This document shows, piece after piece, positions 10,310 through 21,292 of a DNA stretch of 21,292 nt (positions are counted from its first letter, which is position 1; every line of letters starts with the position of its first letter). The stretch lies in UHGV virus genome UHGV-0273766; one strand, 5' to 3'. The DNA is from a virus. Position numbers and translations under genes: made by a program. The notes below the pieces were generated by a model. The model made no database searches and had not been told where the DNA came from. It worked only from the letters and a program-made list of their open reading frames with translations.

Positions 10310-10921
10310 TCAAAGAGAAAAGCTAAAGCCCAGAAGGGAAGCCAAAGAACTTGAGGATTGGTTAAACGTGCTGTGCAATGCGAAGGTCATTGGGAATGAC
10401 TTAAATTCAGTAACCTGATCTCGCGCATAGGTGACATCGCCGGTAGTGACCGGGAATACCGTCATCTCATTTTCCAGTTTGGTTAAGCCGGAAGACAGCA
10501 ACCGATAAATACGCACATTGAGCAAATATTTAGACGGTATATTCCCGGTACCGTCCGGATTGATTACCCGACTTTTTGCCGTCTTAAACCAGTCCAAAAC
10601 GAGGCCATCAACGGTATCCCTGACCATCATTGTTATCTGCCCTGGCGAACGCTCCGTTGGTTGAAGGATATTCCCTCCGCCGATTTTAATCGTTTCATAT
10701 TCGATGCTGTAATCGTGGTAGGTAATATCTTTGGCAAAGAAGTCTGCCCCCTCCAGTCCATCAACTTCGACAGAGAACTGCCATCCTTGCGCGAACAGCA
10801 TTTTGTTCATGATGATTGACGTCAGCTTACCAACTTCCCGTTCACCAACGCCGGAGCCAAATAATGTCGTCGTTAATGCCGAAGATACATAAGACTTTAC
10901 TGAAGCAACATTAAACCCCAT
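10310..10921 (-). CDS. Hypothetical protein (203 aa), probable tail morphogenesis or structural protein
   Basis: Complete ORF with GAGAGG-type Shine-Dalgarno; tightly packed in the minus-strand operon. Confidence 0.55.
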   Translation of the reverse strand: MGFNVASVKSYVSSALTTTLFGSGVGEREVGKLTSIIMNKMLFAQGWQFSVEVDGLEGADFFAKDITYHDYSIEYETIKIGGGNILQPTERSPGQITMMVRDTVDGLVLDWFKTAKSRVINPDGTGNIPSKYLLNVRIYRLLSSGLTKLENEMTVFPVTTGDVTYARDQVTEFKSFPMTFALHSTFNQSSSSLASLLGFSFSL

Positions 10922-10931
10922 ATCAGCCCTC

Positions 10932-11522
<591 letters not shown>

Positions 11523-11556
11523 TTAACCGATTCTACGAGTAGTCATTTGTGACAGG

Positions 11557-12033
11557 TCATTTTGCGCGCTTCAGGCAGCCATCTTCAGGTGCCGCGTTGA
11601 AAAGCTCTGCGGCCTTACGTAGCGTAAATGTTGCGATTTTTTTTCCGTCTACGTATGCATCGAATGTTTTAACTTCCATATCAGGGGTATCTGACCAAAA
11701 ACCATACCAGTAACTATCACCCACAGAGGAACCGATAGAACTGATAGGATATTCATCATCACCAACTTTCAGCGTTATTTGTTCTTTTTTAGCATCAAAT
11801 GACTCACCGCCAGGTTCTGTTTTCATGAGAGTGAGTAGTCGTGTTCCTACTTGATTGGGATCCGTATTATTAAATCCAACATCGCACTCAAATGTAAGCG
11901 TATAATTATCTTTGCTGGAAACAGCATAAGAACGAACACCATGAGTCTCGCCGGTTGACCATTTGCTTACATTTGCCATTGATGAAAATGGAGTAAGCAA
12001 AGCAAGAATTAGAAAAAATCGTTTGATGCGCAT
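11557..12033 (-). CDS. Secreted or periplasmic small protein (158 aa) with N-terminal signal peptide; AT-rich gene
   Basis: N-terminus MRIKRFFLILALLTPFSSMA is a classical Sec signal peptide; gene and flanking intergenic regions look AT-rich by eye (not computed); two Cys in the mature part. Confidence 0.6.
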   Translation of the reverse strand: MRIKRFFLILALLTPFSSMANVSKWSTGETHGVRSYAVSSKDNYTLTFECDVGFNNTDPNQVGTRLLTLMKTEPGGESFDAKKEQITLKVGDDEYPISSIGSSVGDSYWYGFWSDTPDMEVKTFDAYVDGKKIATFTLRKAAELFNAAPEDGCLKRAK

Positions 12034-12094
12034 TAATTTATCTCCTTTGGATATTAACGATTATCAATATTTTAATTGGTTATCCATAATATAT

Positions 12095-12742
12095 TTACCA
12101 TTCATAGGGTAAATTAAGCGCTTTTAAACCTTGCTGGAAGGTATTAAGTGAACCGTTCTTTTGTTGTTCCATTTGTTCGCGTGCCGCTTTCTCATACTGC
12201 TCCATCCGTTGGTTATACTCTTGCAATTCCTCTGGTGAGAGGTTTCCCATTGGGGAGTTTGTACCCGGCCCCCTGGCCCGCTCTTCAAGTGTACCCTGCA
12301 CGTTTTGATGGCGCATTCCTGGGGCATTTCTGATTGAGTCAATGCCATTTCTTCCAACGTCTTCTTTATTAACGGCATTGCTCGCCACCAGCACACCCCA
12401 GCTAGGAATAGCAAAATCAGGAGCGGTTTCGCATGCCTTTACCATATAATCGAAAGTGCTTCGATTGATCTCATTTGCATCGGGGTTTAATAGGCGAGAA
12501 TATTGGTATTTAGCATTTGCGTTGGTTGAGACTTTATACAGTTCCTGCTGCACCATCGCTTCAGAAAGTTTAAGGCGCTTCATATCTGACAGTAACTTCT
12601 TGCGCATGGATTCGTCTTCACTGACAGCAAATCCGTAAACGTGCCCAAGGTATTTCGTATAATCGGTACAAATCTCCTTTACGCTTGATGCTGCATTAAC
12701 AGTCCCAGCCATAAATAATAACGGTAGTAATAGTTTTCTCAT
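12095..12742 (-). CDS. Secreted protein (215 aa from the second ATG), candidate superinfection-exclusion (P1 Sim-like) protein
   Basis: Signal peptide MRKLLLPLLFMAGTVNA with GGTGAGG Shine-Dalgarno upstream of the internal ATG (the ORF track starts 9 codons earlier at 12769). C-terminal segment NAPGMRHQNVQGTLEERARGPGT is shared with the Sit-like protein. Confidence 0.6.
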   Translation of the reverse strand: MRKLLLPLLFMAGTVNAASSVKEICTDYTKYLGHVYGFAVSEDESMRKKLLSDMKRLKLSEAMVQQELYKVSTNANAKYQYSRLLNPDANEINRSTFDYMVKACETAPDFAIPSWGVLVASNAVNKEDVGRNGIDSIRNAPGMRHQNVQGTLEERARGPGTNSPMGNLSPEELQEYNQRMEQYEKAAREQMEQQKNGSLNTFQQGLKALNLPYEW

Positions 12743-12838
12743 TATAACCTCACCTGCCTTATAACTCATTTAGGGTACATATTTTCGCCTTTAAAAAAAA
12801 GAGGTTATTAGATCCAATTGTGCATTTATTAAACAAAC

Positions 12839-12855
12839 AATGCTCTAATAAATTT
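12839..12855 (+). promoter_or_regulatory. P1-type C1 repressor operator (Op51-like)
   Basis: AATGCTCTAATAAATTT matches 16 of 17 positions of the P1 C1 operator consensus ATTGCTCTAATAAATTT (recalled from the literature). Confidence 0.6.
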
Positions 12856-13019
12856 GTATTTTTAAGTCACGAATGCTATCTTTTCGCATCATATTGACCT
12901 TTTAATCGTTCAGGCTTATAGTTCCGCCGTCGTAGCAAATTCTGCGACCGGGTTTAGCAGCCTGAATGTTAGTGCGGACAACCGCAGATATCCGATATTG
13001 CGGTATTTTTGTGTCCGTA

Positions 13020-13110
13020 AAACCGCGTTACGCCCAAATTATGGTGGGGCGTGATGGGGAGGCTTCGGCCTGCTGGTTTCACTAACGCCAGTCTGCTAAC
13101 CCCGTCACGT
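13020..13110 (+). ncRNA. Putative c4-like antisense repressor RNA region (boundaries approximate)
   Basis: Between the operator and the icd-like ORF. Elements CACTAAC (13080-13086) and CTGCTAA (13093-13099) are complementary to GTTAGTG (13152-13158, overlapping the Shine-Dalgarno of the icd-like ORF) and TTAGCAG (13123-13129). Contains a GGC-TTCG-GCC hairpin. Confidence 0.35.
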
Positions 13111-13169
13111 CCTGCCACCTGTTTAGCAGCGGGTAGCAGGTTGTTAAACCTGTTAGTGAGGCCGTAACT

Positions 13170-13391
13170 ATGGTTAATGCCAATCCTTGCGCACGCCAAG
13201 AATTCATCTGGCGTTTCTATTCCTGTAAAAAACACCACTATCACTTCGTTATCGCAGCAACAGAAGACGAAGCACGCTCTCAATTGCCTGATGGCCCCTG
13301 CATTTTTACTGCCCGTTTTTCAACTAACTCGCGCAATTCACTTAGTTACTGGAGCCTCCCCTTCTCTGCCGACGTTCAGGGGGGTTTATGA
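13170..13391 (+). CDS. icd: Icd-like small protein (73 aa), translationally coupled to the antirepressor
   Basis: GAGG about 8 nt upstream of the ATG; its stop overlaps the antirepressor ATG (ATGA). Size and position match P1 icd as I recall it. Confidence 0.45.
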   Translation: MVNANPCARQEFIWRFYSCKKHHYHFVIAATEDEARSQLPDGPCIFTARFSTNSRNSLSYWSLPFSADVQGGL

Positions 13392-14422
13392 AAACACCTC
13401 TCGTCACCCGTAATGAAATAGCCGAAGCGATCGCCTTGCATACAATCTGTATGCCGACACGGGAGATCCCCGGCGCAATTGCCAACTATTTCATGATAAC
13501 CAGGCGTTTTTATACCCGAACAGATAAGGCTGTGATCAACAGGCTACTGATAGCCGAGATCAGGGATTATTTGATTGAACAAGGACGTCTACGTTACGCA
13601 ACAGTGGCAGCAGAAATGAGAAAGGAGGCACATAGAATGACCGGTAATAATTTAAATGTTGAAAAACCAGCACCTGTTGCTTCAGCTACGCCAGCACCAG
13701 CCCTGAATGTCATCCCCAACACCGGAGACACAATCGACAGCCAAACATTGTTGAAGATGGTCAATGAGGCACGGAAATTATGTAGCGAAAAACCAGTTCG
13801 CAACAATGATTTCATTGCCAGAGTTAAGGATGAGCTTGAAGGAGAAACCTACGAAATTTTCGTAGGTCAAAAAAACGGCGCAGAAATAGATATTATAACC
13901 ATGACCTACAAACAAGCCCTGCGAGTTGCCGCGCGCGAGTCAAAAGCGGTCCGCCGTTCGCTGATCGACAAACTGGAAGAATTACAGCAGGCAAACTCCC
14001 CTACCCCATCGATCCCCCAAACATTACCAGAAGCCCTACGCCTGGCTGCCGAGTTGGCAGAACAGAAAATGCATCTGGAACAACAGCTGGTGGCCGCAGC
14101 ACCTAAAGTCGATTTTGCCGACCGGGTATCAGTGGCTAATGGAATCCTGATCGGTAACTTTGCAAAGGTCGTTGGACTTAAGCAAAACGCCCTTTTCTCA
14201 TGGTTGCGCCAGAACGGCATTCTCATGGCTTTTGGTGCGCGCAAAAACGTACCGCGCCAGCAGTACATTAACGCCGGGTATTTCACGGTGAAAGAAGTGG
14301 TGCTGGATGATGAAAATGGCTATCAGATACGGCTGACGCCACAATTAACGGGTAAAGGCCAGCAGTGGTTAACTCGCAAGCTACTTGATGCTGGTTTGTT
14401 AAAACCAGTAGCAATAGGTTAA
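13388..14422 (+). CDS. ant: Phage antirepressor with C-terminal KilAC/ANT domain (344 aa)
   Basis: C-terminal LPEALRLAAELAEQK...APKVDFADRV...ILIGNFAKVVG...QQYINAGYFTVKE...TGKGQQWLTRKLLDAG matches the KilA-C/ANT family by eye; G-rich Shine-Dalgarno; followed by a terminator. Confidence 0.75.
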   Translation: MKTPLVTRNEIAEAIALHTICMPTREIPGAIANYFMITRRFYTRTDKAVINRLLIAEIRDYLIEQGRLRYATVAAEMRKEAHRMTGNNLNVEKPAPVASATPAPALNVIPNTGDTIDSQTLLKMVNEARKLCSEKPVRNNDFIARVKDELEGETYEIFVGQKNGAEIDIITMTYKQALRVAARESKAVRRSLIDKLEELQQANSPTPSIPQTLPEALRLAAELAEQKMHLEQQLVAAAPKVDFADRVSVANGILIGNFAKVVGLKQNALFSWLRQNGILMAFGARKNVPRQQYINAGYFTVKEVVLDDENGYQIRLTPQLTGKGQQWLTRKLLDAGLLKPVAIG

Positions 14423-14435
14423 CAAAAGAAAAAAA

Positions 14436-14460
14436 CCTGCCAGCAAACTGGCAGGTTTCT
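14436..14460 (+). terminator. Rho-independent terminator after the antirepressor gene
   Basis: Stem CCTGCCAG / CTGGCAGG (8 bp), loop CAAA, then TTTCT. Confidence 0.7.
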
Positions 14461-14500
14461 GAGCAGATCGTCCAACCCGATCTGGATCGGGTCAGAAAAA

Positions 14501-14517
14501 TTTGCTCTAATAAATTT
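14501..14517 (+). promoter_or_regulatory. P1-type C1 repressor operator (Op53-like) upstream of the kilA-repL-like operon
   Basis: TTTGCTCTAATAAATTT matches 16 of 17 positions of ATTGCTCTAATAAATTT. Flanked by inverted repeats at 14476-14491 (CCCGATC-TG-GATCGGG) and 14536-14559 (AATCACCA-N8-TGGTGATT). Confidence 0.6.
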
Positions 14518-14586
14518 CGTTTTCTAAGTGCAAAGAATCACCATTTCGAGCTGGTGATTGAAGGTTGATGCAAATTTGGAGAAAAA

Positions 14587-15387
14587 ATGCAACAAACATT
14601 CAATGCGGATATGAATATATCAAACCTTCATCAAAATGTCGATCCTTCAACCACTCTGCCCGTTATTTGTGGTGTTGAAATTACGACCGACCGCGCTGGC
14701 CGTTACAACCTTAATGCTCTACACAGAGCGAGCGGACTCGGTGCCCATAAAGCGCCAGCTCAATGGCTAAGAACGCTGTCAGCCAAACAGCTCATCGAAG
14801 AGCTTGAAAAAGAAACTATGCAGAATTGCATAGTTTCGTTCGAAGGCCGTGGCGGCGGCACTTTTGCCCATGAATTGCTCGCAGTGGAGTACGCAGGCTG
14901 GATTTCTCCCGCGTTTCGGCTGAAGGTAAACCAGACATTTATCGACTATCGAGCCGGAAGATTACAACCTGCTATTCCGAAGAGCCTCCCAGAAGCTCTC
15001 CGTTTGGCTGCTGACCTGGCAGAGCAAAAGCAACGGCTGGAGCAAAAAATGCTGATGGATGCACCTAAAGTCGAATTCGCCGAACGCGTTGCTACCGCCA
15101 GCGGGGTTCTAATCGGCAACTATGCCAAAGTGCTCGGCTTGGGCCAAAACTATCTCTTCACCTGGTTGCGTGATAACGGAATTCTGATCGCAACCGGTGA
15201 ACGCAGGAACGTCCCCAAACAAGAATACATATCCCGTGGGTATTTCACCCTTAAAGAAACCGTGATCGATACAAGCAATGGAAGCAGGATTTCTTTCACG
15301 ACTCGTATAACCGGCAAAGGTCAGCAGTGGCTGATGAAGCGATTGCTTGATGCTGGTGTGCTGGTACCTGTCGCGGCAACGCGCTAA
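14587..15387 (+). CDS. kilA: KilA-N plus KilAC domain protein (266 aa), KilA/antirepressor-like
   Basis: N-terminal KilA-N-like signature (NLNALHRASGLG...GTFAHELLAVEYAGWISPAF); C-terminal half is paralogous to the C-terminus of the upstream antirepressor. Confidence 0.7.
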   Translation: MQQTFNADMNISNLHQNVDPSTTLPVICGVEITTDRAGRYNLNALHRASGLGAHKAPAQWLRTLSAKQLIEELEKETMQNCIVSFEGRGGGTFAHELLAVEYAGWISPAFRLKVNQTFIDYRAGRLQPAIPKSLPEALRLAADLAEQKQRLEQKMLMDAPKVEFAERVATASGVLIGNYAKVLGLGQNYLFTWLRDNGILIATGERRNVPKQEYISRGYFTLKETVIDTSNGSRISFTTRITGKGQQWLMKRLLDAGVLVPVAATR

Positions 15388-15416
15388 CAGACGTAGTAAG
15401 AACCACCAGCATTGTA

Positions 15417-16262
15417 ATGCTGGCTAAAGTCACTTTCCTGAGCTGTATAACGATGAGCGATTTTACTTTTTCTGGCTATGAATTGGCCTTCTTTGTAACA
15501 CACTCCGGTCTATCCCGTAGCGCCGGGCATATCCTGTCGCAATGTGCAAATCTCGCGGCAACAACCAGTGAATACTTCATTCACAAGCCCCACCGCCTGA
15601 TCGCGGCAGAAACTGGTTATAGCCAATCAACCGTCGTTCGTGCATTCCGTGAAGCTGTAAACAAAGGAATTCTATCTGTAGAGATTGTTATCGGCGATCA
15701 CCGTGAACGTCGCGCTAACCTGTACCGGTTTACACCATCCTTTTTGGCCTTCGCACAACAAGCCAAAAATGCGCTGATTGAAAGCAAATTAAAAATCTCT
15801 TCAGCGGCAACCAAGGTTAAAGCTGTTCTCGCTAAGACATTGGCTTTATTTAATTTTTTATCCACACCCCCATGTCAAAATGATACCCCCTCCCCATGTC
15901 AGGATGACGTGGCAATAAAGAATAAGAAGTCACAAGTTAAAAAAACAAAAAGATCAGTTTCCGGCGGTGCCGGAACGATCAGACTCAAAAAATTGACTTC
16001 ATGGATCGCTGAGACAAAAGCAAAGGCTGACAATCTGCGGTTATCCAAAAAACGCGCACAAAAACATGAGTTCAAGCAGAAAGTAGAGGCGGCAGCGCGG
16101 AAATATGCTTACCTGAAGAACAAGCGTTCTCCTGATATTGGCGGGGTATCAAACTTCGATAATCTGCCGCATTGCATGACGGTAAACGAAGCTCTTAATG
16201 CGGTTTTAGCCAAAAATAAAGATAACGAACAATGGGGTATACCGGCAGGATTCAGAGGGTGA
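15417..16262 (+). CDS. repL: RepL-like lytic replication protein candidate (281 aa) with N-terminal HTH-like segment
   Basis: Follows the kilA-like gene as in the P1 kilA-repL operon; HTH-like segment (LIAAETGYSQSTVVRAFREAVNKGIL); Lys-rich C-terminal half; matches my recollection of RepL size. Start codon uncertain (alternative ATG at 15453). Confidence 0.45.
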   Translation: MLAKVTFLSCITMSDFTFSGYELAFFVTHSGLSRSAGHILSQCANLAATTSEYFIHKPHRLIAAETGYSQSTVVRAFREAVNKGILSVEIVIGDHRERRANLYRFTPSFLAFAQQAKNALIESKLKISSAATKVKAVLAKTLALFNFLSTPPCQNDTPSPCQDDVAIKNKKSQVKKTKRSVSGGAGTIRLKKLTSWIAETKAKADNLRLSKKRAQKHEFKQKVEAAARKYAYLKNKRSPDIGGVSNFDNLPHCMTVNEALNAVLAKNKDNEQWGIPAGFRG

Positions 16263-16312
16263 TAGATTGCTCTAATCTGGAGTTACCTGGCGTTTTCAGT
16301 TTGAGGTCGGAG

Positions 16313-16558
16313 ATGCAATCTGATTTTTTACAGTTAGCGATCGCTTTTGCAGGATATGTTTGTATTGGCTTCTGTGTATACATGATCAGCCGAAAAATGC
16401 TTGTCGATATCGACCGCAAAGAACAAGCAGAGGAGATCTTAGTATGGATTTTCTTTGGCGCGGTCTGGCCATTAGGGATCATGTTTGCTGCAACATTTCT
16501 TCTGATGTGGATATTCACCCTTCCAGGTGATTTCTATAGAAAAAAAGCCAGACATTGA
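16313..16558 (+). CDS. Small membrane protein, two predicted transmembrane helices (81 aa from ATG 16313; the ORF track extends to 16232)
   Basis: Hydrophobic stretches LAIAFAGYVCIGFCVYMI and ILVWIFFGAVWPLGIMFAATFLLMWIF; GGAG just upstream of the ATG. Confidence 0.45.
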   Translation: MQSDFLQLAIAFAGYVCIGFCVYMISRKMLVDIDRKEQAEEILVWIFFGAVWPLGIMFAATFLLMWIFTLPGDFYRKKARH

Positions 16559-16738
16559 TACAATCGTTGCGGGTGCTTGAGGCTATCTGCTTCAGGTATT
16601 ACCCGAAAAGCAGATAGAAGAAAGCCCCAGATAACATTACGCGTCCTGCAAGACGCTTAACATTAATCTGAGGCTCAATCTATGAACGGCAAATCTAGGT
16701 TAGCCTCTTACGTGCCGAAAGGCAAGGAGAAGCAGGCT

Positions 16739-16894
16739 ATGAAGCAGCAAAAGGCGATGTTAATCGCCCTGATCGTCATCTGTTTAACCGTCATAGTGAC
16801 GGCACTGGTAACGAGGAAAGACCTCTGCGAGTTACGAATCCGAACCGGCCAGACGGAGGTCGCTGTCTTCACAGTTTACGAACCTGAGGAGTAA
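16739..16894 (+). CDS. hok: Hok/Gef family type I toxin (51 aa), HokD/RelF-like
   Basis: MKQQKAMLIALIVICLTVIVTALVTRKDLCELRIRTGQTEVAVFTVYEPEE is a canonical Hok/Gef sequence; AAGGAGA Shine-Dalgarno; in-frame upstream extension from 16682 (Mok-like leader); GC-rich hairpin at 16903-16924 downstream. Confidence 0.85.
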   Translation: MKQQKAMLIALIVICLTVIVTALVTRKDLCELRIRTGQTEVAVFTVYEPEE

Positions 16895-16932
16895 GAGACC
16901 CGGCGAGGGAGAAATCCCTCGCCACCTCTGAT

Positions 16933-17340
16933 GTGTCAGGCATCCTCAACGCACCCGCACGTAACCCGCTTCGGCGGGTTTTGTTTTTTCCTGGCATTCT
17001 GGTTTACAATTCGCACGCCAGCCTGAACAACTGGCACCTGCTGCGCCAGCAGAGACAACCGATGGCGCACGATACCAAATTACACAATTCTGATGATTCT
17101 GCCGTCTTTGCCAGCAGGCACGGGCGGCGTTCCCGCACTTTCAAATCTGACTGGTTCCAGCATCCCCCATGCACTGAAGAACAGGCCGAGTGGCTAATTC
17201 AGTGCTACCGCAGACACGGATACGAGATTAAGAAAGCCCTCAGCCTCGATTATCGTCACTGGATAATCTCCGTCAGGCTTCCTTACTCCGAACGATCACC
17301 GCGTCCGTCCCGCACATTCCAGCAACGCATCTGGAGGTAA
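16933..17340 (+). CDS. Hypothetical protein (up to 135 aa; start uncertain, possibly the internal ATG at 17062)
   Basis: ORF between hok and the DUF968 gene, in the position occupied by rem in the Qin prophage; no recognisable motif. Confidence 0.35.
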   Translation: MSGILNAPARNPLRRVLFFPGILVYNSHASLNNWHLLRQQRQPMAHDTKLHNSDDSAVFASRHGRRSRTFKSDWFQHPPCTEEQAEWLIQCYRRHGYEIKKALSLDYRHWIISVRLPYSERSPRPSRTFQQRIWR

Positions 17341-17341
17341 C

Positions 17342-18388
17342 GTGCGAGTATTACTTCGACCTGTTCTGGTACCGGAACTCGGGCTGGTGATCGTTAAGCC
17401 GGGCCGTGAATCCATGCCGGTATTCCACAATACCCGGGTACTGGTGGAGCCGGAACCGAAAAGCATGCGTAATCTGCCGTCCGGGGGCGTTCCTGCCGTT
17501 CGCCAGCCGCTGGTGGAAGACAAAACATTGCTGCCGTTTTTCAGTAACGCACGGGTGATTCGTGCTGCTGGTGGTGCTGGTGCATTGTCTGACTGGCTGT
17601 TGCGCCATATTAAATCCTGCCAGTGGCCACACGGCGATTATCATCACAGCGAAACCGTCATTCACCGTTATGGTACCGGCGCAATGGTGTTGTGCTGGCA
17701 CTGCGACAACCAGTTGCGTGACCAGACCTCCGAATCACTTGAGCAACTTGCTCACCAAAACTTGTCAGCATGGATGATTGACGTCATTCGTCACGCAATG
17801 AATGGCACACAGGAGCGGGAATTATCGCTGGCTGAATTATCTTGGTGGGCAACCATAAATAACGTAGCGGACGCACTACCGGAGACGGTATTACGTCGTT
17901 CGCTGGGATTGCGCGCGGAAAAAATTAGCTCAGTATACCGCGAGAGCGACATCGTGCCGGGAGAGCAGAGTGCCACCAGCATGCTGAAGCAGCGCACAAA
18001 AAATATTGCGCCGCTGCTTCACGCCCACCAGCAAAACCCGCCACAGGAAAAGACGGTGGTCAGCATTGCCGTTGAGCCGGAGTCTCCGGAATCTTTCATG
18101 AAACGACCTAAACGTCGCCGCTGGCTTAACGAGAAATACACGCGCTGGGTTAAGACACAGCCGTGTGCATGTTGTGGAAAGCCTGCTGATGATCCCCACC
18201 ACTTGATAGGCCACGGTCAGGGTGGAATGGGTACTAAAGCGCATGACCTCTTTGTGTTGCCTTTGTGCAGAAAACATCACGACGAGCTGCATGCGGATAC
18301 CGTGGCATTTGAAGAGAAGTATGGCTCCCAGCTGGAGCTGATATTTCGTTTTATCGATCGTGCGCTGGCAATAGGCGTGCTGGCCTGA
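17342..18388 (+). CDS. DUF968-family protein (YdfU-like) with C-terminal Cys/His HNH-like motif (348 aa; GTG start, uncertain)
   Basis: C-terminal CACCGK...DDPHHL...GGMGTKAHDLFVLPLCRKHHDELH is characteristic of DUF968 proteins found in lambdoid nin regions; order hok, small ORF, DUF968, Q mirrors the Qin prophage. Confidence 0.7.
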   Translation: MRVLLRPVLVPELGLVIVKPGRESMPVFHNTRVLVEPEPKSMRNLPSGGVPAVRQPLVEDKTLLPFFSNARVIRAAGGAGALSDWLLRHIKSCQWPHGDYHHSETVIHRYGTGAMVLCWHCDNQLRDQTSESLEQLAHQNLSAWMIDVIRHAMNGTQERELSLAELSWWATINNVADALPETVLRRSLGLRAEKISSVYRESDIVPGEQSATSMLKQRTKNIAPLLHAHQQNPPQEKTVVSIAVEPESPESFMKRPKRRRWLNEKYTRWVKTQPCACCGKPADDPHHLIGHGQGGMGTKAHDLFVLPLCRKHHDELHADTVAFEEKYGSQLELIFRFIDRALAIGVLA

Positions 18389-18405
18389 TTTTGTGGAGAA
18401 AGTTG

Positions 18406-18777
18406 ATGCGTGATATTCAAATGGTTCTTGAACGTTGGGGGGCATGGGTGGCAAATAATCACGAGGATGTGGAATGGTCATCTGTTGCTGCAGGTTTTAA
18501 GGGATTAATTCCTTCGAAAGTAAAATCCCGCCCGCAATGTAGCGATGACGATGGCCTGATCATTAGCTCTGCGATGACAGTTCTTAAGAAAAAGGAACCG
18601 TATCAATACGAATTACTGGAAATGTATTATGTGTATGGGGTTACATTACGGGTGTTGGGGGTAAAACTGGGGATATCACTTAATCAGGTTGTTATCAGAC
18701 TGCAGAAAGCTGAAGGGTTTATTGACGGTTGTCTGGCAATGTTGGGGGTATCTTTAGAAATTGATTGTTACATATAG
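18406..18777 (+). CDS. Antitermination protein Q-like (phage 82-type Q family, 123 aa)
   Basis: N-terminus MRDIQMVLERWGAWVANNHEDVEWSS matches my recollection of short Q proteins annotated in E. coli prophages; GGAG about 7 nt upstream; followed by an AT-rich intergenic region as expected for a late promoter and qut site. Confidence 0.65.
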   Translation: MRDIQMVLERWGAWVANNHEDVEWSSVAAGFKGLIPSKVKSRPQCSDDDGLIISSAMTVLKKKEPYQYELLEMYYVYGVTLRVLGVKLGISLNQVVIRLQKAEGFIDGCLAMLGVSLEIDCYI

Positions 18778-18852
18778 TAATAAATTCAATCAAAGTAAAT
18801 AATCATATTTTATTATAACCTCCTGATGATACCTGTTCATTGGGAGGTTATT

Positions 18853-19470
18853 ATGGATAAAAATGTAGAGCATGTATTAGTTGATGCAATTGAAAATAAG
18901 CAATCTTTAACAGTCGTTTACTTAGGAGGGAGCCAGCCCGGAACATTAAGGAATATTTCTCCGATTAGTATAAATGGGGATAAATTGCGGGCAAGATGCC
19001 ATAGTTCTGGAGCAGTAAAGGTTTTCAATCTTGGGAAAATACAGTTACCCAGTGACTCCTGCGCGGTATCTATGCACTATGGAGATTTAGAAGTTAAAGC
19101 TTATGAGACGATGCAGAGCGTAAATGACAACTTTCATGCCCTTTATCCTGAAGGACGATGGGGTGTTGATTTTAATGAGCATCGCTTTGCTTTATTTGAT
19201 TTTTTTAAAAACGGGAAACGAAAAAAAACGGCATTTATGGCAATTGAGTTCAGGGAAAGAGATGAAGAGAAAATAATAACAGGTGTAACAATTGATATTG
19301 GTATATCTGGAACAGTGATTTCTGAGAAGTCCCGAATCCCAAAAAGACGACCATGGGTAGTGGTTGGTCCCGAACACGGAGAATACAGTACTTATTCAAC
19401 TTTGGACAAGGCTGCTACAGCGTTTTTTGAGAGGCTTTCGTTGATAGCATCCGGCCTGGAAGATAATTGA
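18853..19470 (+). CDS. Hypothetical protein (205 aa), AT-rich moron immediately downstream of Q; possible WYL-like N-terminal domain
   Basis: GGGAGG Shine-Dalgarno 5 nt before the ATG; AT-rich by eye; N-terminal pattern VVYLGG...R.ISPISI....LRARCH.....KVFNLGKI resembles WYL/Sm-like folds; followed by a rho-independent terminator. Confidence 0.6.
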   Translation: MDKNVEHVLVDAIENKQSLTVVYLGGSQPGTLRNISPISINGDKLRARCHSSGAVKVFNLGKIQLPSDSCAVSMHYGDLEVKAYETMQSVNDNFHALYPEGRWGVDFNEHRFALFDFFKNGKRKKTAFMAIEFRERDEEKIITGVTIDIGISGTVISEKSRIPKRRPWVVVGPEHGEYSTYSTLDKAATAFFERLSLIASGLEDN

Positions 19471-19600
19471 TTTTATGTTTGGTATTCAGAGTTCGCCGTG
19501 CTTAAGAAAGTCAAGATTCTAAAAATACTGAATGAGCTACTTGTGTTATAACAAAAATGCTATTAGTGTGTTAAGAGTGGTTACTTCGCCACACAACTTA

Positions 19601-19626
19601 AACCCGCCACTGAGCGGGTTTTTTGT
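19601..19626 (+). terminator. Rho-independent terminator downstream of the moron
   Basis: Stem AACCCGC / GCGGGTT (7 bp), loop CACTGA, followed by a T-run. Confidence 0.75.
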
Positions 19627-19746
19627 ACCTGTAAACTTGGTGCAGTACAGTAAACACGCTGGTGGTCGTGAATACTGACTTTTTATCTTGCTGGCTTTTT
19701 AGACAAGAGTTATTGGTATGTCATGTTAACCAGAAGGGAAAAAGAC

Positions 19747-19944
19747 ATGCTAAAACAGCAAGATATGACCGAAACCGCCAGAGTGGTGTTTAATGAATTG
19801 AGCGTCACCGAACCGGCGACAGTCGGGGAGATTGCGCAGAATACTTACCTTTCACGCGAACGCTGCCAGTTAATACTGACCCAGCTGGTTATGGCGGGTC
19901 TGGCAGACTATCAGTTCGGTTGTTACAGACGCCTTCCGCAGTGA
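19747..19944 (+). CDS. Small hypothetical protein (65 aa), possible winged-helix DNA-binding protein
   Basis: AAGGGA about 9 nt upstream of the second ATG; TVGEIAQNTYLSRERCQLILTQLVMAGLA resembles a recognition helix / wing; a terminator hairpin overlaps its stop codon. Confidence 0.4.
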   Translation: MLKQQDMTETARVVFNELSVTEPATVGEIAQNTYLSRERCQLILTQLVMAGLADYQFGCYRRLPQ

Positions 19945-19957
19945 AGGCTTTTTTATT
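19931..19957 (+). terminator. Rho-independent terminator overlapping the stop of the small ORF
   Basis: Stem GCCTTC / GAAGGC, loop CGCAGT, followed by TTTTTTATTT. Confidence 0.65.
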
Positions 19958-20094
19958 TGTGGTAAATGGGCGGCTGGTGGGTGTTAGGGGCACCCACCAG
20001 CCATCTGCTCATGCGTTGGGTTCACAAGCAAACCTCAGGCCCACTGCTTTGCGCAAAAGCAGAATGAGCCTATCAGAGACAGGCTTAATGATCC

Positions 20095-21144
20095 ATGCTT
20101 AATACTGTAAAAATATCCAGTTGTGAGTTAATCAACGCCGACTGCCTGGAATTTATCCGGTCGTTACCCGAAAATTCTGTTGACCTGATAGTCACGGACC
20201 CGCCGTACTTTAAAGTGAAGCCTGAGGGCTGGGATAACCAGTGGAAGGGCGACGATGATTACCTGAAGTGGCTGGACCAGTGTCTGGCGCAGTTCTGGCG
20301 GGTGCTGAAACCTGCCGGAAGTCTTTACCTGTTCTGTGGTCATCGCCTGGCATCTGATATCGAAATCATGATGCGTGAACGCTTCAGTGTGCTGAACCAT
20401 ATTATCTGGGCGAAGCCGTCCGGACGCTGGAACGGATGCAACAAGGAAAGCCTGCGGGCGTATTTCCCCGCCACAGAGCGCATTCTGTTCGCGGAACATT
20501 ATCAGGGGCCGTATCGTCCGAAAGATGCCGGGTATGCGGCGAAGGGCAGTGCACTGAAACAGCATGTGATGGCCCCGCTGATTTCTTACTTTCGTGATGC
20601 GCGCGCGGCCCTGGGGATAACGGCAAAACAGATTGCAGATGCCACAGGAAAGAAAAACATGGTGTCGCACTGGTTCAGTGCCAGTCAGTGGCAGCTACCG
20701 AACGAAAGCGATTATCTGAAATTACAGTCGCTGTTTGCCCGGGTGGCAGAAGAGAAACATCAGCGCGGTGAACTGGAAAAGCCCCACCACCAGCTGGTGG
20801 ATACGTATACGTCACTGAACCGGCAGTATGTGGAGCTGCAGAGTGAATATAAGCATCTGCGGCGGTATTTTGGTGTGACGGCGCAGGTGCCGTACACGGA
20901 TGTGTGGACACATAAACCGGTGCAGTTCTATCCCGGGAAACATCCGTGCGAAAAACCGGCAGAAATGCTGCAGCAGATAATCAGCGCAAGCAGTCGTCCG
21001 GGTGACCTGGTTGCAGATTTTTTTATGGGCTCAGGTTCAACGGTAAAAGCGGCACTGGCGCTCGGGCGTCGTGCGATTGGCGTTGAGCTGGAGACCGGAC
21101 GTTTTGAGCAGACAGTCAGGGAAGTTCAGGATTTAATCGTTTGA
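20095..21144 (+). CDS. Orphan DNA methyltransferase, beta-class amino-methyltransferase (N6-adenine or N4-cytosine), 349 aa
   Basis: Motif IV TDPPY near the N-terminus and motif I FFMGSGST near the C-terminus (beta-class order); no restriction endonuclease gene adjacent. Confidence 0.85.
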   Translation: MLNTVKISSCELINADCLEFIRSLPENSVDLIVTDPPYFKVKPEGWDNQWKGDDDYLKWLDQCLAQFWRVLKPAGSLYLFCGHRLASDIEIMMRERFSVLNHIIWAKPSGRWNGCNKESLRAYFPATERILFAEHYQGPYRPKDAGYAAKGSALKQHVMAPLISYFRDARAALGITAKQIADATGKKNMVSHWFSASQWQLPNESDYLKLQSLFARVAEEKHQRGELEKPHHQLVDTYTSLNRQYVELQSEYKHLRRYFGVTAQVPYTDVWTHKPVQFYPGKHPCEKPAEMLQQIISASSRPGDLVADFFMGSGSTVKAALALGRRAIGVELETGRFEQTVREVQDLIV

Positions 21145-21193
21145 AACGGATGAGATTGCAGAATTAATTACGCACCATTATTATTCTGCTCCC

Positions 21194-21269
21194 GGCCCTT
21201 TAGCTCAGTGGTGAGAGCGAGCGACTCATAATCGCCAGGTCGCTGGTTCAAATCCAGCAAGGGCCACCA
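21194..21269 (+). tRNA. tRNA with anticodon CAT, tRNA-Ile2-like (lysidine type) or tRNA-Met; CCA encoded
   Basis: 7-bp acceptor stem GGCCCTT/AAGGGCC, D-arm AGCTCAGTGG, anticodon loop CTCATAA, T-arm GGTTCAAATCC, discriminator A plus CCA. Closely resembles E. coli ileX/ileY-type tRNA from memory. Confidence 0.85.
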
Positions 21270-21292
21270 TCACATACCGCCATTAGCTCATC

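What the first reader, a model, noticed from the sequence alone, without database searches (positions are those of the whole stretch)
16232..16930. Hok-family toxin preceded by a small two-TM membrane protein rather than relBE; Sok-like antisense not identified
The Hok sequence is near-identical to HokD/RelF as recalled, but its upstream neighbour is an unrelated small membrane protein. An in-frame leader (16682-16738) and a 9-bp-stem hairpin (16903-16924) resemble hok mRNA control elements. An antisense Sok-like RNA is expected on the minus strand around 16600-16740, and an inverted repeat occurs at about 16587-16618. Hok loci are implicated in plasmid maintenance and phage exclusion.
Basis: partly seen in the sequence, partly recalled or inferred. 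Interest (0 to 1): 0.45.

Follow-up and report, generated by a model that had tools for sequence, protein, structure and literature searches.

The report
Complete hok/mok/sok toxin-antitoxin module
This is an ordinary, fully equipped hok/mok/sok killer-gene module: a small membrane toxin held in check by an antisense RNA, of a kind found in most E. coli genomes. The "missing" antisense gene is present, and the small membrane protein next to it is an unrelated gene of a P1-like phage-plasmid.

Summary
Window 16537-16990 holds a complete type I toxin-antitoxin locus of the hokD/hokW lineage.

- **Family matches.** The Rfam hok-leader model (RF01794) matches full length at 117 bits (threshold 59). 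Pfam HOK_GEF matches the toxin. The 51-aa Hok is 49/51 identical to K-12 HokD.
- **Leader ORF.** The in-frame leader is mok, as in K-12 MokC and Sp5 "MokW" (70 aa).
- **Sok.** It lies on the minus strand at about 16690→16614. Its promoter (TTGCCT, 17 nt, TAACCT) is identical in sequence to the corresponding stretch of the Sp5 hokW-sokW locus, whose sokW promoter was mutated experimentally. It was located by mapping the K-12 sokC/sokB annotations.
- **RNA folding.** Predicted folds reproduce the published switch: tac-fbi closure in the full-length mRNA, then tac-ucb and mok-SD/dcb stems after 3' trimming.
- **K-12 relBE-hokD** is the truncated form. Its homology starts only at the hok Shine-Dalgarno.
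- **The 81-aa protein** (phrog_3772) belongs to the P1-like backbone and occurs without hok in phage SJ46.

One unusual point: the window switches from P1-like to lambdoid sequence inside the Sok stem (16636-16674). This junction was found nowhere else. It is either a real crossover or an assembly chimera.

The parts
16537..16564 (+). hok/mok mRNA promoter: -35 TAGAAA, 16-nt spacer, TG-extended -10 TACAAT. It lies inside the 3' end of the 81-aa ORF.
   Evidence: This is the only sigma-70-like site the scan found on either strand of 16200-17100. The -10 ends 6 nt before the leader 5' end, the same spacing as the mutationally verified R1 -10 TATGAT (PMC9841398; alignment).
16571..16990 (+). hok/mok mRNA, running from the inferred +1 (GGGUGCUUGAGG...) through fbi to the intrinsic terminator.
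   Evidence: Rfam RF01794 position 1 aligns at 16571. The 388-nt fold has -155 kcal/mol and z = -8.1. The terminator is reported.
16571..16582 (+). tac (translational activator element) at the mRNA 5' end.
   Evidence: It pairs with 16944-16956 in the full-length fold and with 16622-16628 in the 3'-trimmed fold. In the first 50 nt it forms a metastable hairpin with 16589-16604.
16583..16617 (+).
   Evidence: It is the first long stem of the Rfam consensus and appears in both MFE folds. Helix 3 shows 3 compensatory pairs across 7 hok loci.
16622..16630 (+). ucb (upstream complementary box, the anti-SD of mok).
   Evidence: It pairs with the mok SD region 16668-16675 in the full-length fold and with tac in the trimmed fold.
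16614..16690 (-). Sok antisense RNA gene, about 71-77 nt. It has a 5' single-stranded tail covering the mok start codon and SD, then a long hairpin and a U-rich tail.
   Evidence: The annotated K-12 sokC and sokB ends both map to 16690 and 16614 through alignment A2. The fold has -33.7 kcal/mol and z = -6.1. Sp5 sokW is reported to have 71 nt of complementarity to the hokW 5' UTR (PMC8621323).
16697..16725 (-). Sok promoter: -35 TTGCCT (16725→16720), 17-nt spacer, -10 TAACCT (16702→16697), +1 about 16690.
   Evidence: Read directly from the sequence. The -10 sits 6 nt before the mapped Sok 5' end. This stretch is identical to the corresponding stretch of Sp5 hokW-sokW, where mutating the sokW promoter unleashed toxicity (PMC8621323). 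It was not called by the strict consensus scan.
16670..16673 (+). mok Shine-Dalgarno (GAGG).
   Evidence: It has the same motif and similar spacing as the R1 mok SD GAGG (PMC9841398; alignment). It is sequestered by ucb in the full-length fold.
16682..16894 (+). mok reading frame, in frame with hok; the read-through product is 70 aa.
   Evidence: ORF list. It is 67% identical to K-12 MokC (69 aa, also in frame) and 87% identical to the Sp5 70-aa 'MokW-like' product. The exact 70-aa sequence occurs on 105 public contigs.
16702..16707 (+). dcb (downstream complementary box).
   Evidence: It pairs with mok SD 16670-16675 in the 3'-trimmed fold only, as described for R1 (PMC9841398).
16739..16894 (+). 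hok toxin ORF (51 aa), preceded by SD AAGGAG at 16724-16729.
   Evidence: Pfam HOK_GEF 76.5 bits; phrog_251; 49/51 identical to K-12 HokD. The exact sequence occurs on 121 public contigs named HokD.
16903..16924 (+). 3' stem-loop, predicted to be the terminal hairpin of the trimmed, active mRNA.
   Evidence: The 9-bp stem forms in both folds. Helix 16 has 3 compensatory pairs across loci. The equivalent R1 stem-loop protects against 3' exonucleases (PMC9841398).
16944..16956 (+). fbi (fold-back inhibitory element).
   Evidence: 12 bp with one bulge pair it to tac. Helices 1-2 are 100% and 93% paired across 7 loci, with compensatory U-A→C-G in R1 and G-C→A-U in hokB.
16963..16990 (+). Intrinsic terminator: a 7-bp stem followed by a T run.
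   Evidence: It is shared with K-12 hokD and the lambdoid allele, but not with the P1-like allele.
16313..16558 (+). Neighbouring 81-aa membrane-protein gene of the P1-like backbone. It is not part of the toxin-antitoxin module.
   Evidence: phrog_3772, function unknown. It is found only in P1-like phages. A 44% homologue in SJ46 has no hok leader nearby. Lambdoid homology to the window starts only at ~16559.
16636..16674 (.). Crossover interval. The window matches the P1-like allele to the left and the lambdoid allele to the right.
   Evidence: All differences from the lambdoid allele other than two SNPs private to the window (16597, 16832) lie at or before 16635. All differences from the P1-like allele other than those two lie at or after 16675.

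Best explanation
Window 16537-16990 is a structurally complete hok/mok/sok type I toxin-antitoxin module of the hokD/hokW lineage.

Mechanism, inferred from the R1 and Sp5 paradigms:
1. The hok promoter makes a stable full-length mRNA.
2. The 5' tac element pairs with the 3' fbi element, and ucb sequesters the mok Shine-Dalgarno. The transcript is therefore neither translated nor bound by Sok.
3. Slow 3' trimming back to the 16903-16924 stem-loop lets tac pair with ucb instead. This frees the mok ribosome-binding region.
4. Translation of mok (here in frame with hok) drives hok translation.
5. The unstable antisense Sok RNA, made constitutively from the opposite strand (~16690→16614), pairs with the mok start region. 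It blocks translation and directs RNase III cleavage.
6. When Sok supply stops, Hok inserts into the inner membrane and kills or lyses the cell.

The likely triggers for Sok loss are loss of the P1-like plasmid prophage, or prophage induction as shown for hokW-sokW.

Shown here in silico: the presence and conservation of every element and the predicted alternative folds. Inferred: expression, toxicity and the physiological role.
For: - Family matches: Rfam RF01794 gives a full-length match at 117.2 bits, equal to intact K-12 hokC (118.3) and above R1 (88.9). Pfam HOK_GEF matches the toxin.
- Promoters: the hok promoter has its -10 in the R1-equivalent position (PMC9841398). The Sok ends were mapped from the annotated sokC/sokB. 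The Sok promoter stretch is identical to the corresponding stretch of Sp5 hokW-sokW (promoter mutated experimentally in PMC8621323).
- Sok folds with z = -6.1.
- Conformations: the full-length fold pairs tac with fbi and ucb with the mok SD. The trimmed fold pairs tac with ucb and the mok SD with dcb. The nascent 50 nt form the metastable tac hairpin. This matches the published model (PMC9841398).
- Covariation across 7 hok loci: 83% of cells are paired against about 40% in slid controls, and 34 pairs carry compensatory changes against 7-11 in the controls.
- Close relatives are functional: the Sp5 70-aa Mok-Hok product is 87% identical to the window's, the locus is about 90% identical in DNA, and hokW was shown to be toxic and neutralised by sokW (PMC8621323).
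Against: - There are no expression or toxicity data for this sequence.
- The Sok -10 (TAACCT) matches only 3 of 6 consensus bases, and the strict promoter scan did not call it. It does fit TANNNT.
- The NCBIfam Hok HMMs score below their cut-offs (45 bits against 73).
- The tac-fbi duplex energy alone is only about 2.8 sd better than a shuffled 3' UTR.
- Intact chromosomal hokA/B/C loci were reported not to mediate post-segregational killing (cited in bioRxiv 10.1101/2025.08.07.668861), so structural completeness does not prove that role.
- The locus as it sits in the window is a P1-like/lambdoid hybrid that may be an assembly artefact.
Confidence: 0.92

Rival explanations
1. The molecular module is the same, but it does not stabilise the plasmid. 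Instead it helps lysis when the prophage is induced, as reported for hokW-sokW of Sp5. Induction lowers Sok and raises Hok, which aids lysis and phage release.
For: The closest characterised relative is hokW-sokW: the 70-aa Mok-Hok products are 87% identical and the Sok promoter stretch is identical. Deleting it halved Sp5 release after mitomycin C (PMC8621323). The locus sits directly downstream of the P1 lytic-replication operon kilA-repL, with no strong terminator in between. Lytic read-through into hok is therefore conceivable; this is inference.
Against: P1-like elements are low-copy plasmid prophages, the classic setting for hok/sok post-segregational killing. The two roles are not mutually exclusive. 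No data exist for this allele.
Confidence: 0.4
2. The locus is an inactive remnant (pseudo-locus), like several K-12 chromosomal hok loci.
For: K-12 hokD lacks the leader, and IS186 sits about 20 bp downstream of K-12 hokC. Chromosomal hok loci were reported not to mediate post-segregational killing (bioRxiv 10.1101/2025.08.07.668861). The hybrid origin could in principle mismatch interacting elements.
Against: Every element is intact: both ORFs are open, the Rfam score is higher than for either parental allele (117.2 against 114.9 and 113.3), and all long-range pairings are retained in the hybrid. Forty-two of 45 tested Hok homologues, including HokD, were toxic (same preprint).
Confidence: 0.05
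3. The 81-aa two-TM protein and Hok form one functional unit, either a co-transcribed membrane toxin pair or a toxin with an immunity protein. This would be analogous to hokD being the third gene of relBEF.
For: The two are adjacent on the same strand in about 230 complete E. coli genomes with P1-like plasmids. The hok -35 lies inside the 81-aa ORF, and no convincing terminator separates them.
Against: The hok module occurs without this gene in lambdoid phages, where homology begins at ~16559. The gene occurs without hok in SJ46. hok has its own promoter and a complete leader. The 81-aa protein matches only phrog_3772 (function unknown) and no Pfam or NCBIfam family.
Confidence: 0.05
4. The P1-like/lambdoid junction inside the hok leader is an assembly chimera formed across the shared hok repeat. 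The hybrid locus would then not exist as one molecule.
For: The switch is clean and falls within a 39-bp stretch identical in both parents. The junction 84-mer and a shorter 53-mer are absent from genome contigs, viral contigs and metagenome contigs. No complete E. coli genome matches the 190-nt leader above 94.8%. E. coli genomes carry a median of 2 copies of this repeat, a typical cause of misjoins.
Against: About 400 bp of ~92% identity with a 39-bp perfect core is enough for RecA recombination. hok leader halves are visibly reassorted in nature: the opposite allele combination is in at least 120 IMG/VR contigs. Both flanks are in the same orientation, so a single crossover would give exactly this product.
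Confidence: 0.45

Closest known systems
hokW-sokW of Sakai prophage 5 (Stx2 phage VT2-Sakai), E. coli O157:H7 (PMC8621323)
   Same: - A 70-aa in-frame Mok-Hok product, 87% identical to the window's.
- An identical Sok promoter stretch.
- The same long Sok hairpin, carrying the ~18-nt insertion relative to sokC.
- The same tac and fbi elements.
- About 90% DNA identity over the locus.
   Different: - The first 5 mok codons differ, and with them the Sok 5' tail, which is the target-recognition end.
- The hok C-terminus differs (TVYEPEE against VDYESEK).
- The 3' flank and terminator differ.
- The genomic slot differs: Sp5 carries it near the right end of the prophage, whereas here it lies after repL of a P1-like element.
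hokD (relF) of the K-12 Qin prophage, third gene of relBEF
   Same: The toxin is 49/51 identical. The sequence from the hok SD through fbi and the terminator is about 98% identical (window 16725-16990). The downstream neighbours (rem-like ORF, DUF968/ydfU, Q) are of the same kind.
   Different: K-12 hokD has lost the promoter, tac, ucb, the mok start and the Sok gene. The relE 3' end abuts at the point equivalent to 16725, and there is no Rfam leader hit. The window carries the complete ancestral-type module.
hok/sok (parB) of plasmid R1
   Same: The same set of elements in the same order: promoter, tac, ucb, mok SD, the Sok gene antisense to the mok start, dcb, hok, the 3' stem-loop and fbi. 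Pairings are maintained by compensatory changes (PMC9841398).
   Different: - The Hok proteins are only ~35% identical.
- mok is out of frame with hok in R1 and in frame here.
- The first leader hairpin is longer in R1, and the Sok hairpin is longer here.
- The Rfam score is 89 bits for R1 against 117 here.
hokC/mokC/sokC (gef) of the E. coli chromosome
   Same: mok is in frame (MokC 69 aa, 67% identical). The tac and fbi sequences are nearly identical. The Rfam score is equal. The annotated sokC maps exactly onto 16690→16614.
   Different: sokC is 59 nt because it lacks the hairpin insertion. It is a chromosomal locus between nhaA and dnaJ, not one carried on a phage.

Membership tests
hok/mok/sok type I toxin-antitoxin | Small Hok/Gef-family membrane toxin ORF | tested here: met
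   Pfam PF01848 scores 76.5 bits against a cut-off of 22. It also matches phrog_251. There is a single hydrophobic helix at about aa 6-24 of Hok. It is 49/51 identical to HokD.
hok/mok/sok type I toxin-antitoxin | Conserved structured 5' leader of the hok mRNA (Rfam RF01794) | tested here: met
   117.2 bits against a gathering score of 59, model positions 1-157 of 157, on the hok-sense strand. The model hits the same strand in K-12 hokC and hokB.
hok/mok/sok type I toxin-antitoxin | mok reading frame starting upstream of hok and overlapping it | tested here: met
   ATG at 16682 with GAGG 8 nt upstream. The frame is open through hok and in frame with it, as in MokC and Sp5 MokW. Translational coupling itself cannot be tested here.
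hok/mok/sok type I toxin-antitoxin | cis-encoded antisense Sok gene with its own promoter, complementary to the mok translation-initiation region | tested here: met
   The position comes from the sokC/sokB annotations. The TTGCCT-17-TAACCT promoter is identical to the corresponding Sp5 stretch. The hairpin plus U-rich tail folds with z = -6.1. Transcription was not observed.
hok/mok/sok type I toxin-antitoxin | Long-range tac-fbi pairing that closes the full-length mRNA | tested here: met
   12 bp pair 16571-16582 with 16944-16956 in the MFE fold. Pairing is 100% and 93% across 7 loci, with compensatory changes in R1 and hokB.
hok/mok/sok type I toxin-antitoxin | Refolding after 3' trimming (tac-ucb and mok SD-dcb), plus a metastable 5' hairpin | tested here: met
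   The predicted folds of 16571-16928 and 16571-16620 show exactly these pairings. This rests on thermodynamic prediction only.
hok/mok/sok type I toxin-antitoxin | Toxicity of Hok, neutralisation by Sok, and RNase III-dependent decay | not testable with these tools
   These need wet-lab assays. They have been shown for R1 and for the ~90% identical hokW-sokW (PMC9841398, PMC8621323).
relBEF-type arrangement (hokD as distal gene of a type II TA operon) | hok directly downstream of relE with no hok leader or Sok gene | tested here: not met
   The upstream DNA is repL plus an 81-aa ORF, with no relBE, and the full leader is present.
Punavirus (P1-like) phage-plasmid backbone, left flank | Synteny c4/icd/ant - kilA - repL, with ≥96% DNA identity to P1-like plasmids | tested here: met
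   Window 1-16956 is 96-98% identical to ~95-kb E. coli plasmids. The C4 RNA and its a1b1 targets are present. Reference P1 has rlfA/rlfB in place of the 81-aa ORF plus hok.

The most novel reading that the evidence does not exclude
The window records a genuine single crossover, inside the 39-bp perfectly shared Sok stem, between the hok/sok module of a P1-like phage-plasmid and that of a lambdoid prophage. Ubiquitous hok/sok modules would then act as portable homology. Through it, phage-plasmids could co-integrate with, or exchange arms with, chromosomal prophages, producing hybrid but still fully functional toxin-antitoxin leaders.
Probability: 0.35. Interest if true: 0.4.

Novelty: already known. 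Interest (0 to 1): 0.15.

Why it matters
It matters little as a discovery.

- **Prevalence.** hok/mok/sok is a textbook system, and this allele family is present in about 87% of complete E. coli genomes. All three proteins already exist verbatim in public databases.
- **K-12 hokD.** The analysis shows that the K-12 relBE-hokD arrangement is the truncated exception. This locus represents the intact form.
- **Annotation trap.** Rfam's "sok" model matches the hok-sense leader, not the antisense gene.
- **Possible recombination hotspot.** The hok module may be a recombination hotspot between a phage-plasmid and a lambdoid prophage. If the junction is real, this is a modestly interesting example of toxin-antitoxin modules serving as mosaic joints.

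Tried and rejected
- **Consensus promoter scan for Sok.** It called nothing on the minus strand. I do not count this as evidence of absence, because TTGCCT/TAACCT scores 7/12 under a rule that needs 9/12. By my reading of alignment A2, the R1 equivalent (TTGCGC/TATCCT) would score 8/12 and also fail. The Sp5 stretch is identical to the window's.
- **tac-fbi duplex energy against shuffled 3' UTRs.** The result is only about 2.8 sd better than shuffles, so it is weak alone. I relied on position, compensatory changes and whole-mRNA folds instead.
- **NCBIfam.** The Hok models fall below their cut-offs, and there is no model for the 81-aa protein. Pfam has nothing for the 81-aa protein or for RepL.
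- **Exact-match searches for the hybrid junction.** An 84-mer was searched in genome contigs, viral contigs and metagenome contigs, and a 53-mer in viral contigs. All gave zero hits.
- **SNPs as lineage markers.** I first treated the SNPs on each side of the junction as diagnostic of lineage. The opposite combination turned out to be common (at least 120 IMG/VR contigs), so the right-hand "P1-like" allele is not specific to P1.
- **The look-up of encoding contigs with the 70-aa product.** All 25 contigs read show one lambdoid-remnant context (ChaC/MFS - hok - DUF968 - RusA - Q). None shows the P1-like left flank.
- **The 81-aa protein as a toxin partner.** Rejected on distribution.
Full report
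**Observation.**
- A 51-aa Hok ORF lies at 16739-16894. It is preceded in frame by a 19-codon extension starting at ATG 16682.
- A 9-bp-stem hairpin lies at 16903-16924, and an inverted repeat at 16583-16617.
- The upstream ORF is best taken from ATG 16313 (81 aa), as annotated in homologous plasmids. It has two hydrophobic segments.
- The toxin matches Pfam HOK_GEF (76.5 bits) and is 49/51 identical to K-12 HokD.

**The leader is intact and Sok is there.**
- Rfam RF01794 ("sok") matches 16571-16744 over its whole length at 117.2 bits (gathering score 59, E = 1.7e-26).
- The match is on the hok-coding strand, and the model consensus ends in the hok AUG. In K-12 the same model hits the strand opposite to the annotated sokC and sokB RNAs. 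The Rfam family therefore models the hok mRNA leader, inside which Sok is encoded antisense.
- For comparison, intact hokC scores 118-119 bits, hokB 110, R1-type hok 89, the P1-like allele 115 and a lambdoid allele 113. K-12 hokD gives no hit.
- Projecting the K-12 sokC and sokB annotations through a five-locus alignment places both ends identically in the window, at 16690 (5') and 16614 (3') on the minus strand.
- Six nt upstream of that 5' end lies TAACCT (16702→16697). Seventeen nt further lies TTGCCT (16725→16720). The -10 fits TANNNT.
- The whole stretch is identical to the corresponding stretch of the Sp5 (VT2-Sakai) hokW-sokW locus. There, sokW was detected by northern blot, and mutating its promoter released HokW toxicity (PMC8621323).
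- The predicted 77-nt RNA folds into a 5' tail, a long hairpin and a U-rich end (-33.7 kcal/mol, z = -6.1). sokW is reported to share 71 nt of complementarity with the hokW 5' UTR (PMC8621323).

**hok promoter.** The only sigma-70-like site the scan found in 16200-17100 is on the plus strand: TAGAAA, 16 nt, TG-TACAAT at 16537-16564. It ends 6 nt before the leader's first base (16571). That spacing equals the distance between the mutationally verified R1 -10 (TATGAT) and its +1 (PMC9841398).

**The RNA switch.** The published model has five parts (PMC9841398):
1. tac-fbi closure of the full-length mRNA.
2. ucb sequestering the mok SD.
3. 3' trimming that leads to tac-ucb and mok SD-dcb stems.
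4. A metastable 5' hairpin in the nascent transcript.
5. A terminal 3' stem-loop that protects the trimmed mRNA.

Thermodynamic folds of the window reproduce the four pairing states (1-4), and the hairpin of part 5 forms in both long folds:
- In 16571-16958 (-155 kcal/mol, z = -8.1), 16571-16582 pairs with 16944-16956 and 16623-16630 pairs with 16668-16675.
- In 16571-16928, 16571-16578 pairs with 16622-16628 and 16670-16675 pairs with 16702-16707.
- The first 50 nt fold tac onto 16589-16604.

I projected the window's fold onto seven hok loci (window, Sp5, P1-like, lambdoid, hokC, hokB, R1). 83% of cells pair, against about 40% when partners are slid by 1-3 columns. Thirty-four pairs carry changes on both sides, against 7-11 in the slid controls. 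The tac-fbi helices are 100% and 93% paired, with compensatory changes in R1 and hokB. One caveat applies: the structure was derived from one of the aligned sequences.

**mok.** The in-frame leader is mok. K-12 mokC (69 aa) and the Sp5 "MokW-like" ORF (70 aa) are likewise in frame with hok. In R1, hokB and the P1-like allele, mok is out of frame.

**Why there is no relBE.** K-12 hokD aligns with the window only from 16725 (the hok SD) to about 16990. Upstream of that point lies the relE 3' end. K-12 therefore carries a truncated hok that lost its promoter, tac, ucb, mok start and Sok gene. The window carries the complete module.

**The 81-aa neighbour.**
- Window 1-16956 is 96-98% identical to ~95-kb P1-like plasmids of E. 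coli, in the order c4/icd/ant, kilA, repL, 81-aa ORF, hok.
- Reference P1 has rlfA and rlfB in that slot.
- The 81-aa protein is phrog_3772, of unknown function. tblastn finds it only in P1-like phages.
- A 44% homologue in SJ46 has no hok leader nearby.
- Lambdoid copies of the hok module begin at ~16559, just after its stop codon.
- It is a backbone accessory gene, not part of the toxin-antitoxin system.

**Prevalence.**
- The locus type is found in 4,706-4,741 of 5,426 complete E. coli genomes, with a median of two copies.
- The exact 51-aa, 70-aa and 81-aa proteins are already in public collections, on 121, 105 and at least 1000 contigs respectively.
- hok enrichment in prophages has been described (bioRxiv 10.1101/2025.08.07.668861).

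**The one unusual feature.** Setting aside two SNPs private to the window (16597, 16832), the window is identical to the P1-like allele up to 16635 and to a lambdoid allele from 16675 onward. The lambdoid match continues into a lambdoid nin/Q region: a 92-aa ORF, DUF968, Q, a methylase and tRNA(CAT). The switch falls within 39 bp that are identical in both alleles, in the Sok stem.
- The junction sequence is absent from genome contigs, viral contigs and metagenome contigs. No complete E. coli genome matches the 190-nt leader above 94.8%.
- The opposite allele combination is common in IMG/VR, so leader halves do reassort.
- I cannot distinguish a real crossover from an assembly misjoin.
- Either way, the hybrid retains every pairing and scores slightly above both parental alleles.

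**Function.**
- The molecular mechanism is assigned with high confidence by homology.
- The physiological role is inferred. One option is post-segregational stabilisation of the plasmid prophage, as for R1. The other is assistance of lysis after induction, as for hokW-sokW (PMC8621323). I rate the two as roughly equally likely, and they are not exclusive.
- Intact chromosomal hok loci have been reported not to mediate post-segregational killing (cited in the bioRxiv preprint), so that role is not guaranteed.

**Verdict.** This is a known system, correctly spotted. The supposed anomalies are explained. Interest is low.

Noticed in passing
window 16636-16674 (flanks 1-16635 and 16675-21292): The window is a clean join of a P1-like phage-plasmid on the left and a lambdoid nin/Q region on the right. 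The crossover lies inside the hok leader (Sok stem). The junction was not found in any collection searched. It is either a real recombination or an assembly chimera.
   Followed up: partly
window 16571-16744; L005 602-754; L006 1567-1718: Rfam RF01794, named 'sok antitoxin', models the sense-strand hok mRNA leader. Its consensus ends in the hok AUG. It hits the strand opposite to the annotated sokC and sokB in K-12. This is a strand and naming trap for annotation.
   Followed up: yes
window 16722/16723 versus L001 (P1-like allele): A 1-nt indel makes mok in frame with hok in the window, lambdoid, Sp5 and hokC alleles (70/69-aa fusion). It is out of frame in the P1-like allele, hokB and R1. Both states exist among close relatives.
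   Followed up: partly
window 16877-16880: hok codon 47 is UAC followed by G (UACG). [quoted passage not shown] The adjacent A46V change (GCU→GUU) lies just upstream of the motif.
   Followed up: no
window 12839-13122 and 14501-14517: A P1-type immI region is present. It holds the C4 antisense RNA (13037-13122, 70 bits) and its a1/b1 targets (12916-12968). Two near-consensus C1 operator sites lie at 12839-12855 and 14501-14517, where 0.11 are expected by chance.
   Followed up: partly
window 16262-16285: Homology to reference P1 ends inside the C1 operator Orlf/Op55 just after repL. Only the first part, ATTGCTCTAAT, is retained. The 81-aa ORF and hok replace rlfA/rlfB of P1 at a breakpoint within that operator. 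Whether C1 still binds is unknown.
   Followed up: partly
L010 2152-2325 (phage RCS47): RCS47 keeps a weaker hok-leader match (68.5 bits) after an IS605-disrupted copy of the 81-aa gene. No hok is annotated downstream, so this may be a decayed module.
   Followed up: no
window 17062-21269: The lambdoid late-regulatory segment holds a 92-aa ORF (phrog_1212), DUF968/HNH-like (17342-18388), antiterminator Q (18391-18777), an N6/N4 DNA methylase (20095-21144) and tRNA(CAT) at 21194-21269. This is the same arrangement as downstream of K-12 hokD (rem, ydfU, Q) and as upstream of stx in Stx phages.
   Followed up: partly
window 16515-16564: The hok -35 and a weak terminator-like hairpin (16515-16530) lie inside the 3' end of the 81-aa ORF. 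No strong terminator separates the kilA-repL lytic operon from hok, so read-through into hok during lytic growth is conceivable.
   Followed up: no
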